From the human T2T-CHM13v2.0 reference genome, Homo sapiens, in assembly GCF_009914755.1 (NCBI RefSeq), contig NC_060945.1: 64,000 bases of DNA; one strand, written 5' to 3'. The notes below the pieces were generated by a model, which saw nothing but the letters and a program-made list of their open reading frames with translations, was not told where the DNA came from and did not search any database. Positions 11,140 through 58,392 of this stretch are shown in pieces. The position numbers and the translations under genes were made by a program. Within the stretch, counting starts at the first letter, position 1. Each line of letters opens with the position of its first letter.

Positions 11140-12570
11140 AATTCTGGCAAGATGGAGTAGACATGCTTTTTCCTATTCTTCCTATCAAGTAGAACTAAAA
11201 ATACTGAGCATCATATGTAGAACAAATATAAGATGATTCTGGAAGGTAGAAAGAAAGCAGACCAGTCAGAGACCTTGAGACCCAAAGAACAAGGGAGTGC
11301 GTTCCTGGGTTGTCTTCTTGCCTCATTTGTCCTAGACTTAGAACTCAAGTCAGCAACCTGGAAACATCGACAGGCTCTCACACACACAAAGGCCGGAACA
11401 AAAGCCTGTTCTCTCTAACAAAAAAGAATGGAAAAAGGGCTGCCTAGCAAGACAGAAAACTGTGAGCCAAGAGCGGCGATACTTCAGCCAAACACTTCAC
11501 TGTGCCCCACTCCCAGCCACACCAGCAAAGGTGGAGCCTAGACTCCCACCCCTGCCAGGCTGGAAAGAGGAGCCCCAAATCCCCTGTTGGGGTGGCATGA
11601 GAGAAGGCCAAGTAGGGAGGCAGGATGTTCCTCTCCTGGGCAGTGACAGTACACTCCTCCTGCCCCCACTGGGGTGTCAGAGGAAGCCTAGCAGAGAGTA
11701 AGGACTTTCAGCATGCCCAGCAGTGACTGGGCAGCCCCCACTTCTACCTGTCCCCGCCAGGAAAGACCTGCAGAGGCCCAGTGAGCAGCTGGGACCCCCA
11801 TCTCAACCAACAGTCACAAGCGGGACAGATGGACTTTTCAACACACAGAGGCTGTAACAACTGACAACAACAGGTGAAGCAGTATGAATCCAGACCTGGA
11901 CATCACACCTCACAGAAAAGTGAGCTCAAAACAGATCACGGGCTTAAATTTAAAGAGTAAAACTAGAAACTTTTAGATAGAAACATAAGAAAAATTCCTC
12001 AGGATCTAGGAGTAGACAGAGTTCTTAGATGCCAAGAGCATGATCCGTAAAAGGAAAAACTGACCAAATGGGCTTCATCAAAATTAAAAGCTTTTGCTCT
12101 GTGAAAGAACTTGTTAAAAGGATTAAAAGATAAGCTACGGATTGTTAGATATTTGCAAACCACAAATCCTTCCAAGGACTAGTATCTGGAATATATAAAG
12201 AACACTCAAAACTCAATAGTTGAAAAAAGAAAGACAAAAAAAAAAAAAAATCCCCAAACTCAAGTTAAAAAAACAAAAGACAAAAAAAAAAAAAAAATCC
12301 CCAAACTCAAGTTAAAAAAACAAAAGACAAAAAAAAAAAAAAATCCCCAAACTCAAGTTAAAAAAACAAAAGACAAAAAAAAAAAAAAATCCCCAAACTC
12401 AATAGTTAAAAAAACAAAAAACAAAAAATCCCATTAGAAAATGGGCAAAAGACATGAACAGACATTTCACCAAAGAGGATGTGCAGATAGCAAATAAGCC
12501 ACAGGATGTTCAACATCATTAGCCATTAGAAAAATGCAAATTCAAGCCACAATGAGCTATCCCTGCACAC
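11140..12570 (+). mobile_element. L1M fragments (5'-end-like plus 3' ORF2)
   Basis: L1 ORF2 3' motifs (catcaaaattaaaagcttttgctc, aaatgggcaaaagacatgaacagacatttcaccaaagagg). Confidence 0.75.
12209..12432 (+). repeat. VNTR, 46-47-bp A-rich unit, 4 full copies plus 1 partial
   Basis: AAACTCAA(TA)GTTAAAAAAACAAAAGAC(A)nTCCCC starts near 12209, 12256, 12303, 12349 and 12395. Confidence 0.92.
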
Positions 12571-55248: not shown

Positions 55249-55334
55249 CTTTGTTTTCAGTGTGGATAATAAAATATTGATGGTAGAGATCCTATCTTCC
55301 TTTATCCCTGAGCTAAAAATGCAAGGAATAAATT
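55249..55334 (-). CDS. URB1: URB1 exon (window exon 3; EFIPCIFSSGIKEDRISTINILLSTLKTK)
   Basis: TTTCAG|AAT acceptor, AAG|GTATG donor, 86 nt. Confidence 0.93.
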
Positions 55335-55464: not shown

Positions 55465-56825
<1,361 letters not shown>

Positions 56826-57037
56826 TAATCGCTGCATTCCATCTTATGACCAGTCCCCAATTTGCTCAGCCAATCCCTTACTGGTGGATAGTTAGAAGAC
56901 CCATTTCCAGCTAATATAAATATTATTCCCTAACAAAACCTCTACTCACATCTTTAATTATTTCACTGGGATAAATGACTAGACATGGAATTGCAGGATC
57001 AAGTATCTTAAAAGTTTTTTTATCTTTTTTCTTTATC

Positions 57038-57173
57038 TATTGTGCAACCCACTTCAGTGCCAGCAGCCTACGGGCACAGAGGCCAGGCAATGGTTCAGGG
57101 CTACAGTTTGCTCTGGCATGGGGTACTATGAGAGGTCCAGGGGGACGGGCCCATCATAAATCCAAACCCATGC
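57038..57173 (-). ncRNA. SNORA80A: H/ACA box snoRNA SNORA80A (ACA67)
   Basis: 136 nt with two hairpins (first closed by GCAUGGG/CCCAUGC), H box AGAGCA (57109-57114) and ACA 3 nt from the 3' end; pocket sequences GGAUUU..AGU and GAACCAU..CUGA are complementary to 18S rRNA; intronic and sense to URB1. Confidence 0.95.
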
Positions 57174-58295
57174 ATAAGCACCTTAAAAGTTTTGATGTGT
57201 ACAGCCAAACTTCCCAGCAGAAACATTAAACTGTAGTATGTTCCAGCCCCCTTCAACAGTGTAAATGGTACCAACTGTCACTGAATAAAAGGCCAGACAG
57301 CTGAAATGGCCCACGGGAATTTGAAGAAACTACTGGCCCTGGCAGCAGCAAGATATCCTGAACCTAGTGCCTGGTAACAAGTAGGAAAAAAAAAAATCTG
57401 TCCGCTGCATTATGCAGAGACCACATCTCCACTCTCATGCTGCTCCACCACAGCAGCAATAGAGCGCCCCACACAGACCAGGCTGACCACATACAGGGTG
57501 ACCGCCACCTGCACTCTCCTCCTAAATCGTCCCGGCAGTCACGTTCCAGGGGCAGTCCAGATCTCCCATCCTGGGAGGGAGAAGAAGGGCTGGAGACCCA
57601 AACACCCTGAGTACAGCACCCTGCTACTCCTCCTCAATAACTCCCAGAGTTCCGGCCAGGACATGGGACTGCTCCTCACCTCCAGACAGGCCAGGATTCC
57701 AGGGAATCTTACCGAGCAACTGCCATGTGCTGAGCTAAGTGCTGCCATTTATCATCTTAGTGAATCTCTTGATAAAATGCAAGGGGCCCTGGCAGATTAA
57801 ATGATGCCAAGCCTCACTCTAGGGACACAGCCACCAAAAGGTGGTCAAGTTGGAATTCTCTGAAGCCCTGTTACTGATGTTCTCGTAACACAGGTCTAAG
57901 CCACCAAAGAAACTAACTTTGTTTTTTAAAACGACATCTCCCAAGGAAATCCAGGTAGCCAAGGCTATGAGTCTGAGTAGGTTCCATAGCCATAAAGCCT
58001 CCTTTGTTTGCCCGACTCTGCCTCTCTGAAGTCTGCATTTATCCTCTGTGACGGCATTGTTCAGCATTCCAGACGGCATAACAGGAACAACTCTGTTCAC
58101 TCTTGACCAGTGATATCAAAATGGTACTGACCAAGGCTTTGCACCCGCTCACCCACCTCCCTGCCCCACATCCTTCAATCTGGTGTACACAGCAACTGCA
58201 AAGGCTGCAGACTTTTTTTGAACTTGGAAGAAACGGTTTGCAGTAGGTTTTTCAAAACAAATGGGCTTTCCTAACGGACAAGGGAGTACACCTAC

Positions 58296-58392
58296 CTTTC
58301 ACTTCCAACACCTGCACTATAGTGCTGTCATCACCCGCAATTAAAAAGGAGAGAGCAAACTGAACGTAGGCCTGCCGAACGTCGTACACTCC
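58296..58392 (-). CDS. URB1: URB1 exon (window exon 2; GVYDVRQAYVQFALSFLIAGDDSTIVQVLEVK)
   Basis: CTCTAG|GGA acceptor, AAG|GTAGG donor, 97 nt, phase-consistent. Confidence 0.93.

What the first reader, a model, noticed from the sequence alone, without database searches (positions are those of the whole stretch)
57001..57193. SNORA80A is a retrotransposed snoRNA: A tail, 18-bp TSD and L1-endonuclease site, inserted sense into a ribosome-biogenesis gene
Seen in sequence: the H/ACA RNA (57038-57173, minus) is followed by a decayed A tail (plus-strand T-rich 57015-57037). It is bracketed by aagtatcttaaaagtttt (57001-57018) and aagcaccttaaaagtttt (57176-57193), which match at 16 of 18 positions. 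On the minus strand the 5' junction reads TC/AAAA, close to the L1 endonuclease consensus TT/AAAA, and the flanks look like a split old L1 relic. Established: L1 machinery mobilises snoRNAs (snoRNA retroposons), and the ACA67/ACA42 family has several paralogues. Inference: this copy jumped into URB1 in the sense orientation and kept both boxes and both guide pockets intact while its tail and TSD decayed. That suggests selection, and couples an 18S guide RNA to a 60S assembly factor. Retroposition within this family may already be reported.
Basis: partly seen in the sequence, partly recalled or inferred. Interest (0 to 1): 0.8.

Follow-up and report, generated by a model that had tools for sequence, protein, structure and literature searches.

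The report
SNORA80A: a known retroposed snoRNA copy
SNORA80A in a URB1 intron is a LINE-1-mobilised copy of the snoRNA hosted by the ornithine decarboxylase gene, and this was already published for this snoRNA in 2006, so the finding is correct but not new.

Summary
An H/ACA snoRNA of the SNORA42/SNORA80 family lies at 57038-57173 on the minus strand (159 bits). It is followed by an A-rich stretch (18 A of 23). It is bracketed by 18-mers at 57001-57018 and 57176-57193 that match at 16 of 18 positions. Only 12 of 12,000 random anchors in the same window do as well. The 5' junction reads TC/AAAA.

The interpretation, L1-mediated retroposition into URB1 in sense, is right. The flanks do belong to an old L1 ORF2 relic.

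It is already in print. Weber 2006 calls ACA67 (SNORA80) a Type-1 snoRNA retroposon seen only in human, chimpanzee and rhesus. That paper names ACA67B, in ODC1 intron 1, as the parent. Luo & Li list ACA67 among snoRNAs encoded by retrogenes.

- The chr2 parent has no flanking repeat and sits upstream of the ODC coding exons.
- Both 18S guide elements are identical to the parent's.
- SNORA80A has 2 private changes, against 9 and 11 in the chr16 and chr7 copies.
- Part of the "tail" may be parental intron carried along.

Selection is suggested but not shown. The link to 60S assembly has no support.

The parts
57190..57195 (-). Target nick site. The minus strand reads TC/AAAA, one substitution from the L1 endonuclease consensus TT/AAAA. 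The AAAA is the start of the upstream repeat copy.
   Evidence: Read directly. Luo & Li state that most H/ACA retrogenes carry T2A4 or a derivative with one or two substitutions at the 5' end.
57176..57193 (-). Upstream (5') copy of the target site duplication. Minus strand: AAAACTTTTAAGGTGCTT.
   Evidence: 16 of 18 match with 57001-57018. 12 of 12,000 random anchors do as well.
57174..57175 (-). Two nucleotides (AT) between the repeat and the annotated snoRNA 5' end. They are identical to positions -2 and -1 of the chr2 parent.
   Evidence: The chr7 copy has one such nucleotide (T), equal to the parent's -1.
57038..57173 (-). SNORA80A (ACA67), an H/ACA snoRNA. H box AGAGCA at 57114-57109. ACA at 57043-57041, 3 nt from the 3' end. 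Guide elements at 57163-57158 with 57127-57125 (18S U572) and at 57096-57090 with 57057-57054 (18S U109).
   Evidence: RF00406, 159.3 bits, full length. Boxes and guide complementarity computed against this genome's own 18S. The target numbers are recalled from snoRNABase.
57024..57037 (-). 14 nt directly after the snoRNA (GATAAAGAAAAAAG). Probably the parent's A-rich intronic trailer carried over with the RNA.
   Evidence: 12 of 14 columns match the 13-nt trailer of the chr2 parent, with one gap. 146 of 5,000 composition-preserving shuffles do as well. This is an inference.
57019..57023 (-). Short remaining A tail (ATAAA). It runs into the AAAA that starts the downstream repeat copy.
57001..57018 (-). 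Downstream (3') copy of the target site duplication. Minus strand: AAAACTTTTAAGATACTT.
   Evidence: This 18-mer itself aligns to uninterrupted L1 relics L009 and L014 as part of the repeat.
56812..57000 (-). Old LINE-1 ORF2 C-terminal relic, in the same orientation as URB1 and lying 3' of the insertion. It translates as DPAIPCLVIYPSEIIKDV... with four stops.
   Evidence: blastn to L012 (E 4e-13), L009 (2e-11) and L015 (1.6e-4). BLASTP to L014, E 4e-10 over 64 aa. L014 carries RVT_1 (E 1.4e-19) and aligns to human LINE-1 ORF2p residues 1124-1190 (E 1.5e-14).
57194..57293 (-). Sequence 5' of the insertion. Probably the continuation of the same L1 relic, much more decayed.
   Evidence: Banded colinear alignment to four natural L1 copies: summed score 40 against a null of 27.4 (sd 3.1). 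1 of 400 shuffles and 1 of 391 other window pieces reach it. Unrestricted DNA and protein comparisons were not significant.

Best explanation
SNORA80A is a Type-1 snoRNA retroposon. A nearly mature H/ACA RNA was released from intron 1 of ODC1 (today's SNORA80B/ACA67B). It still carried 2 nt of 5' flank and probably about 13 nt of the A-rich 3' intronic trailer, plus a few added A residues. The LINE-1 machinery reverse-transcribed it at a TC/AAAA nick inside an old L1 ORF2 relic in a URB1 intron. This produced an 18-bp target site duplication. The copy landed in the sense orientation of an expressed gene and kept its H and ACA boxes and both guide elements. It is therefore excised from the URB1 intron and assembled into an H/ACA particle like any intronic snoRNA, and it guides the same two 18S pseudouridylations as its parent. 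What is shown here: the anatomy, the paralogue comparison, the L1 nature of the target and the identity of the guide elements. What is taken from the literature: the restriction to primates, the conservation of the parent across vertebrates and the expression of the RNA. What is inferred: the exact RNA intermediate and present-day function.
For: - snoRNA: full-length family match at 159.3 bits.
- Repeat: 18-bp flanking repeat matching at 16 of 18, reached by 12 of 12,000 random anchors.
- Tail and nick site: A-rich tail with 18 A of 23 and a TC/AAAA junction.
- Extent of homology: in the alignment of all seven copies with 25 nt upstream and 45 nt downstream, similarity between paralogues ends at the snoRNA. 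The exceptions are 1-2 nt 5' and an A-rich trailer 3'.
- Family: seven members by covariance model. A DNA search with the parent finds six of them and nothing more.
- Parent: the chr2 copy's best flank match is 8 nt, 90 nt away, so it has no target duplication. It lies about 2.1 kb upstream of Orn_Arg_deC_N model positions 1-48, on the same strand.
- Other retrocopies: the chr7 copy has its own flanking repeat (AAAAAGGCTGTCA / AACAAGGCTGTCA). The chr14 copy has a pure run of 18 A.
- Target site: it lies in an L1 ORF2 relic. Natural uninterrupted copies carry a single equivalent of the 18-mer.
- Guide elements: those for 18S U109 and U572 are identical in SNORA80A and the parent.
- Weber 2006 (passages read): ACA67 is a Type-1 snoRT present only in human, chimpanzee and rhesus. 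ACA67B in ODC1 intron 1 is conserved in 11 vertebrate genomes and is the parental copy.
- Luo & Li (passages read): ACA67 is encoded by a retrogene. These RNAs were cloned from anti-GAR1 immunoprecipitates or verified by Northern blot or primer extension.
Against: - I could not see an empty orthologous site myself.
- The upstream flank's L1 origin rests on one banded test. Four less constrained comparisons gave nothing.
- The trailer reading is weak (146 of 5,000 shuffles for SNORA80A and 285 of 5,000 for the chr16 copy). G-interrupted A tails are common in snoRNA retroposons according to Weber.
- SNORA80A shares A136 with the chr16 copy. So a route through another retrocopy, rather than straight from ODC1, is not excluded.
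- Weber names the host only as 'the AF231919 mRNA gene'. That this is URB1 rests on my recall and on the SNORA80 name in Weber's accession list.
Confidence: 0.95

Rival explanations
1. SNORA80A was not copied directly from the ODC1 parent. It came from another retrocopy, for example the chr16 copy SNORA80C, or it was itself the source of that copy. This would be secondary retroposition within the family.
For: SNORA80A and the chr16 copy share A at position 136, against G in the chr2, chr7 and chr1 copies. They also share T21, G22 and A72.
Against: T21, G22 and A72 are also the states of the outgroup SNORA80E. They are therefore probably ancestral states of the parent, not shared novelties. Position 136 lies in the unconstrained tail after the ACA box. 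The chr16 copy's trailer resembles the chr2 parent's trailer (11 of 13 ungapped) more than it resembles SNORA80A's. The chr16 copy has 9 private changes that SNORA80A lacks.
Confidence: 0.1
2. The snoRNA is ancestral in URB1. The 18-mers and the A-rich stretch are chance features of an AT-rich intron, and the ODC1 copy is the derived one.
For: The repeat is imperfect (16 of 18) and AT-rich. The tail is interrupted by G and T.
Against: The anchored repeat is reached by 12 of 12,000 random anchors. It coincides with an A-rich tail and an endonuclease-like site. The chr2 copy has no such hallmarks. Both flanks fit one L1 relic that is uninterrupted in other copies. Weber reports ACA67 only in three primates and ACA67B in 11 vertebrates.
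Confidence: 0.02
3. DNA-level duplication (segmental duplication or gene conversion) moved the snoRNA into URB1, rather than an RNA intermediate.
For: None specific. Paralogous snoRNAs can arise by local DNA duplication. Luo & Li give ACA5 in TBRG4 as a case that most likely did not arise by retroposition.
Against: Homology with the chr2 locus stops within 2 nt of the snoRNA 5' end and within about 14 nt of its 3' end. The copy is on another chromosome. It has the tail, the flanking duplication and the nick site expected of target-primed reverse transcription.
Confidence: 0.02

Closest known systems
Type-1 snoRNA retroposons (snoRTs) of Weber 2006, PLoS Genet 2:e205. ACA67 is one of the paper's own examples.
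   Same: [quoted passage not shown] It sits in an intron in the sense orientation, and a conserved parental copy lies elsewhere (ACA67B in ODC1)..
   Different: Nothing essential. The carried-over 3' trailer may be about 13-14 nt rather than the 0-9 nt of Weber's definition (weak). The 2 nt 5' of the snoRNA match the parent rather than being untemplated.
H/ACA retrogenes of Luo & Li, Nucleic Acids Res 35:559. ACA67 is listed among previously known snoRNAs encoded by retrogenes.
   Same: Poly(A), a flanking duplication and a T2A4-like site at the 5' end. Formation is attributed to the L1 integration machinery.
   Different: None. Their Figure 2 is not held as an image, so I saw only its legend.
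SNORA80D (ACA67d, chr7) and the ACA42-derived copies on chr1 (115.6 Mb) and chr14
   Same: Same RNA family and the same mode of origin. chr7 has a 13-nt flanking repeat, chr14 has a run of 18 A, and chr1 (115.6 Mb) has an A-rich tail after a parental-type trailer. All are listed as retrogenes by Luo & Li.
   Different: They are more decayed: 11 private changes in chr7, no H box in the chr1 (115.6 Mb) copy, and the 5' part of the chr14 copy does not align with the family. SNORA80A has 2 private changes and scores highest against the family model.

Membership tests
H/ACA snoRNA family SNORA42/SNORA80 (Rfam RF00406) | Score above the curated gathering threshold over the full model | tested here: met
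   159.3 bits against 70, model positions 1-136 of 136.
H/ACA snoRNA family SNORA42/SNORA80 (Rfam RF00406) | Hairpin-hinge-hairpin-tail with an H box in the hinge and ACA 3 nt from the 3' end | tested here: met
   AGAGCA at RNA positions 60-65 and ACA at 131-133 of 136.
H/ACA snoRNA family SNORA42/SNORA80 (Rfam RF00406) | Bipartite guide complementarity around a target uridine, 14-16 nt from the box | tested here: met
   18S U109: 7 + 4 bp, 14 nt from ACA. 18S U572: 6 + 3 bp. Both are identical to the parent. That these are the accepted targets is recalled, not from a call. Actual pseudouridylation by this copy was not tested.
Type-1 snoRNA retroposon (Weber 2006) | Starts at the mature snoRNA 5' end, with at most a few extra nucleotides | tested here: met
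   Only AT lies between the repeat and the snoRNA. Definition.
Type-1 snoRNA retroposon (Weber 2006) | 0-9 parental bases followed by a short A-rich tail | tested here: met
   A 23-nt stretch with 18 A. How it divides into trailer and tail is uncertain, and the trailer may be 13-14 nt.
Type-1 snoRNA retroposon (Weber 2006) | Bracketed by a target site duplication of 7-19 bp | tested here: met
   18 bp, 16 of 18 identical. Reached by 12 of 12,000 random anchors.
Type-1 snoRNA retroposon (Weber 2006) | L1 endonuclease-type site at the start of the duplication | tested here: met
   TC/AAAA, one substitution from TTAAAA. Criterion as in Luo & Li.
Type-1 snoRNA retroposon (Weber 2006) | Lineage-specific presence, with an empty site carrying one copy of the duplicated sequence in outgroup species | not testable with these tools
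Weber reports presence only in human, chimpanzee and rhesus. As a substitute, natural L1 copies L009 and L014 run through a single equivalent of the 18-mer.
Type-1 snoRNA retroposon (Weber 2006) | A parental copy without retroposon hallmarks, conserved in its host gene | tested here: met
   The chr2 copy has no flanking repeat. It lies upstream of the ODC domain exons on the same strand. Its conservation in 11 vertebrates is from Weber and was not tested here.

The most novel reading that the evidence does not exclude
Two things would go beyond the 2006 descriptions.

1. SNORA80A has been held under purifying selection since it landed in URB1, as a second working source of the 18S U109/U572 guide. 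Its sister retrocopies on chr16 and chr7 drift. SNORA80A has 2 private changes against 9 and 11, although shared character states suggest it left the parent before the chr7 copy did.
2. The ODC1 parent is unusually prone to retroposition because its intronic trailer directly after the snoRNA is A-rich (GAAAAGAAGAAAG). A 3'-extended precursor would then already carry a built-in substitute for a poly(A) tail for the L1 reverse transcriptase to prime on.
Probability: 0.3. Interest if true: 0.25.

Novelty: already known. Interest (0 to 1): 0.1.

Why it matters
It is a clean textbook case of how mammals gain new snoRNA genes and how snoRNAs change host genes. An RNA copy made by LINE-1 lands in an intron in the right orientation and works at once. 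That principle, and this very example, were established in 2006, so the finding opens no new question. The session does give an independent check from a complete human assembly. The check covers all seven family members and the L1 nature of the target site. It also adds two modest leads, on selection and on the A-rich parental trailer, that primate genome alignments could settle quickly.

Tried and rejected
- Flank translations against solved structures gave nothing useful. The upstream flank had 0 hits and the downstream flank had one irrelevant hit at E 0.67.
- Pfam on three minus-strand frames of each flank: 0 families for 6 of 6 translations.
- Own-genome DNA searches with the flanks. The left flank gave one extra 45-bp hit on chr17 and the right flank gave none. 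So the flanks are too decayed to count as a recognisable repeat by that search.
- Unrestricted local alignment of the upstream flank to chr17, chr11 and chr6 relics was not above shuffles: 120, 40 and 71 of 300 reach the score. The same holds for L014, where 197 of 500 reach it. BLASTP of the upstream flank against L014 found no alignment at E <= 100. Only the banded, position-restricted test was positive.
- L017 (chr9) is a weak protein match to the upstream flank (E 0.05). It has no DPAIP segment and neither flank matches it at the DNA level, so I dropped it as spurious. L018 and L019 (E 1.18 and 3.15) were not followed.
- L013 was scanned with Pfam without result. It was not used in the alignments.
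- The chr16 copy: no convincing flanking repeat (best 7 nt, inside the tail). It sits between two Alu elements, identified by eye.
- A test of selection from the repeat's own decay. There are 2 changes in 36 repeat positions and 2 in 136 snoRNA positions. By my own arithmetic this gives about 0.2 under equal rates, which is not significant.
- Paper search for SNORA80A: 10 papers in the listing. Judging by title and abstract start, none is about its evolution.

Full report
**What is there.**
Rfam's SNORA42/SNORA80 model (RF00406) matches window 57038-57173 on the minus strand over its whole length. The score is 159.3 bits against a gathering score of 70. URB1 is on the minus strand in the supplied gene table, with exons at 55249-55334 and 58296-58392. 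The snoRNA is therefore intronic and in sense.

Read on the minus strand, the locus is:

...ACACATC | AAAACTTTTAAGGTGCTT | AT | snoRNA (136 nt, ending ACAATA) | GATAAAGAAAAAAGATAAA | AAAACTTTTAAGATACTT | GATCCTGCAATTCC...

The two 18-mers (57176-57193 and 57001-57018) agree at 16 of 18 positions, and both differences are transitions. The 23 nt after the snoRNA hold 18 A. The six bases at 57195-57190 read TCAAAA. This places a TC/AAAA site at the start of the upstream repeat copy.

**Is it more than chance?**
I placed a 136-nt element at 12,000 random positions of the same window, on both strands. I then asked for an 18-mer ending within 5 nt upstream that matched one starting within 40 nt downstream. 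Twelve of the 12,000 positions reached 16 of 18 or better. This count ignores the tail and the nick site, which are additional coincidences.

**The family in this genome.**
The window's own assembly could be searched. The covariance model finds seven loci:
- chr21, this one (159.3 bits)
- chr2 at 10.48 Mb (155.2 bits)
- chr16 at 30.8 Mb (147.1 bits)
- chr7 at 6.13 Mb (146.0 bits)
- chr1 at 155.06 Mb (137.8 bits)
- chr1 at 115.6 Mb (96.0 bits)
- chr14 at 31.9 Mb (63.6 bits, below the cut-off)

A DNA search with the chr2 copy finds six of these and nothing else. SNORA80A differs from the chr2 copy at 10 of 136 positions. It differs from the chr1 (155 Mb) copy, which is ACA42/SNORA80E, at 34 positions.

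In snoRNA-sense orientation:
- The chr2 copy has no flanking repeat. Its best match is 8 nt, 90 nt away.
- The chr7 copy has AAAAAGGCTGTCA just upstream and AACAAGGCTGTCA 6 nt downstream of the snoRNA.
- The chr14 copy is followed by 18 uninterrupted A.
- The chr1 (115.6 Mb) copy has an A-rich tail after a trailer that resembles the trailer of the chr1 (155 Mb) copy.

Homology between the chr21 and chr2 loci stops 2 nt before the snoRNA and within about 14 nt after it. This argues for an RNA intermediate and against a DNA duplication.

**The parent.**
The Pfam ornithine/arginine decarboxylase N-terminal domain matches chr2 at 10474083-10474226 (model positions 1-48) and at 10473694-10473879 (positions 48-109). 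Both matches are on the minus strand. The chr2 snoRNA (10476324-10476459, minus) therefore lies about 2.1 kb upstream of the first domain-coding exon, in sense. This fits intron 1 of ODC1.

**The target site.**
I tested this without building any joined sequence.

The flank 3' of the insertion (56812-57018, minus) matches three other loci by blastn: chr11 L012 (E 4e-13), chr17 L009 (E 2e-11) and chr6 L015 (E 1.6e-4). Its translation (DPAIPCLVIYPSEIIKDV..., with stops read as X) matches a chrX locus, L014, at E 4e-10 over 64 residues in a pairwise BLASTP. L014 carries a reverse-transcriptase domain on the same strand (RVT_1, E 1.4e-19). The matching segment of L014 aligns to residues 1124-1190 of the solved human LINE-1 ORF2 protein (E 1.5e-14). 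So this flank is a relic of the C-terminal part of L1 ORF2, in the orientation of URB1.

The alignments to L009 and L014 begin at the first base of the 18-mer (for L014, 0 of 500 shuffles reach the score). The duplicated sequence is therefore itself L1-derived, and those natural copies run through a single equivalent of it.

The flank 5' of the insertion is far more decayed. Unrestricted DNA and protein comparisons gave nothing. I then restricted the alignment to within 12 nt of the position expected for a continuous relic and summed over four natural copies. The score was 40 against a null of 27.4 (sd 3.1). It was reached by 1 of 400 shuffles and by 1 of 391 other pieces of the window. I read this as a split relic, with the upstream half only weakly supported.

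**What is in print.**
Weber (PLoS Genet 2006, PMC1687206; passages read) makes these statements:
- ACA67B lies in sense in the first intron of ODC1, is conserved in 11 vertebrate genomes and 'constitutes the parental copy'.
- A further copy in JTV1 is primate-specific.
- ACA42 may come from an ancient retroposition.

Weber's accession list equates ACA67 with SNORA80. That AF231919 is today's URB1 is my recall.

Luo & Li (Nucleic Acids Res 35:559, PMC1802619; passages read) list ACA67 among previously known snoRNAs 'encoded by retrogenes'. The legend of their Figure 2 says it shows poly(A), TSD and the L1 site. They note that these RNAs were cloned from anti-GAR1 immunoprecipitates or verified by Northern blot or primer extension. 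Their table also lists ACA67d (chr7, intronic), ACA42b (chr14) and ACA42c (chr1) as retrogenes. These correspond to three of my seven loci.

Figures themselves are not held. A search for SNORA80A returned 10 papers. Judging by the listing, none deals with its evolution.

**Function.**
I took an 18S copy from the same genome and scanned for bipartite complementarity around uridines at the right distance from the boxes.
- The 3' hairpin elements GAACCAU (RNA positions 78-84) and CUGA (117-120) bracket 18S U109, 14 nt from the ACA box.
- The 5' hairpin elements GGAUUU (11-16) and AGU (47-49) bracket U572.

All four elements are identical in SNORA80A and the chr2 parent. That U109 and U572 are the accepted targets is recalled from snoRNABase. 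The naive scan also lists other sites of equal or higher pair count, such as U1625 and U892, so the scan alone does not single these two out.

**Selection.**
I counted positions where one of the four ACA67-type copies differs from the other three. The counts are 2 for SNORA80A (C77T at a CpG, and G134A after the ACA box), 2 for the parent, 9 for chr16 and 11 for chr7.

At positions 21, 22 and 72, SNORA80A and chr16 share the state of the outgroup SNORA80E, while chr2 and chr7 share another state. The simplest order is that chr16 and chr21 left the parent before those changes and chr7 left after them. SNORA80A would then be older than the chr7 copy yet five times less changed, which suggests constraint.

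This rests on six informative columns, with conflicts at positions 38 and 136. It also cannot be dated here. Comparing the snoRNA (2 changes in 136 nt) with the repeat pair (2 in 36 nt) gives about 0.2 by my own arithmetic. Selection is plausible but not shown.

**The 'coupling' idea.**
Nothing supports a functional link between an 18S guide and a 60S assembly factor. The parental host is ODC1. In a passage on another snoRNA, Weber writes that the insertion 'occurred by chance'.

**Small additions.**
- The AT between the repeat and the snoRNA equals the parent's positions -2 and -1. The single T in the chr7 copy equals the parent's -1.
- The first 14 nt after SNORA80A match the parent's 13-nt trailer in 12 of 14 columns with one gap. 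Of 5,000 composition-preserving shuffles, 146 do as well. For chr16 the figure is 285 of 5,000, and chr7 is uninformative.
- If this is real, the 'decayed A tail' is largely carried-over intron and the added tail is only about 5 nt. It would also hint that the A-rich trailer is why Weber found ACA67B 'particularly prone to retroposition'. This is a lead, not a result.

**Verdict.**
Interest is low.

Noticed in passing
window 57024-57037 (minus); L002, L003: The 14 nt after SNORA80A resemble the 13-nt A-rich intronic trailer of the chr2 parent (12 of 14 columns; 146 of 5,000 shuffles do as well). The chr16 copy shows the same pattern (285 of 5,000). Part of the 'A tail' may be carried-over parental intron, and it is longer than the 0-9 nt of Weber's Type-1 definition.
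   Followed up: partly
L001-L005 (snoRNA positions 21, 22, 31, 38, 42, 72, 73): The human ODC1 copy has changes (C21, A22, G38, G42) that make a perfect 8-bp upper stem, GACAGGCC/GGCCUGUC. SNORA80A and SNORA80E keep a weaker stem that looks ancestral. This suggests the parent evolved by compensatory changes after SNORA80A was copied.
   Followed up: partly
L004 (chr7:6134639-6134773): SNORA80D has its own flanking repeat (AAAAAGGCTGTCA / AACAAGGCTGTCA, 12 of 13) with only about 6 nt between the snoRNA and the downstream copy. It has 11 private changes, including a 1-nt deletion in the 5' guide strand.
   Followed up: partly
L007 (chr14:31909513-31909649): An ACA42-type retropseudogene with an uninterrupted run of 18 A. 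Its first roughly 35 nt do not align with the family, so it is 5'-replaced or chimeric. It is listed as ACA42b by Luo & Li.
   Followed up: no
L003 (chr16:30805829-30805963): SNORA80C sits between two antisense Alu elements (identified by eye). No clear flanking repeat could be defined for it.
   Followed up: no
window 56487-56811 and 55515-55809: Alu elements show up as sub-threshold Metazoa_SRP, mir-1268, mir-3135 and mir-1285 matches. The one at 56505-56811 (minus) abuts the L1 relic about 230 nt 3' of the snoRNA.
   Followed up: no
L009 (chr17:8403049-8406093, minus frame 2, residues 168-240): The chr17 locus that holds the uninterrupted L1 relic also contains a Myosin_tail_1 match (E 6e-19). 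It is presumably a myosin heavy chain exon, so that relic is intronic too.
   Followed up: no
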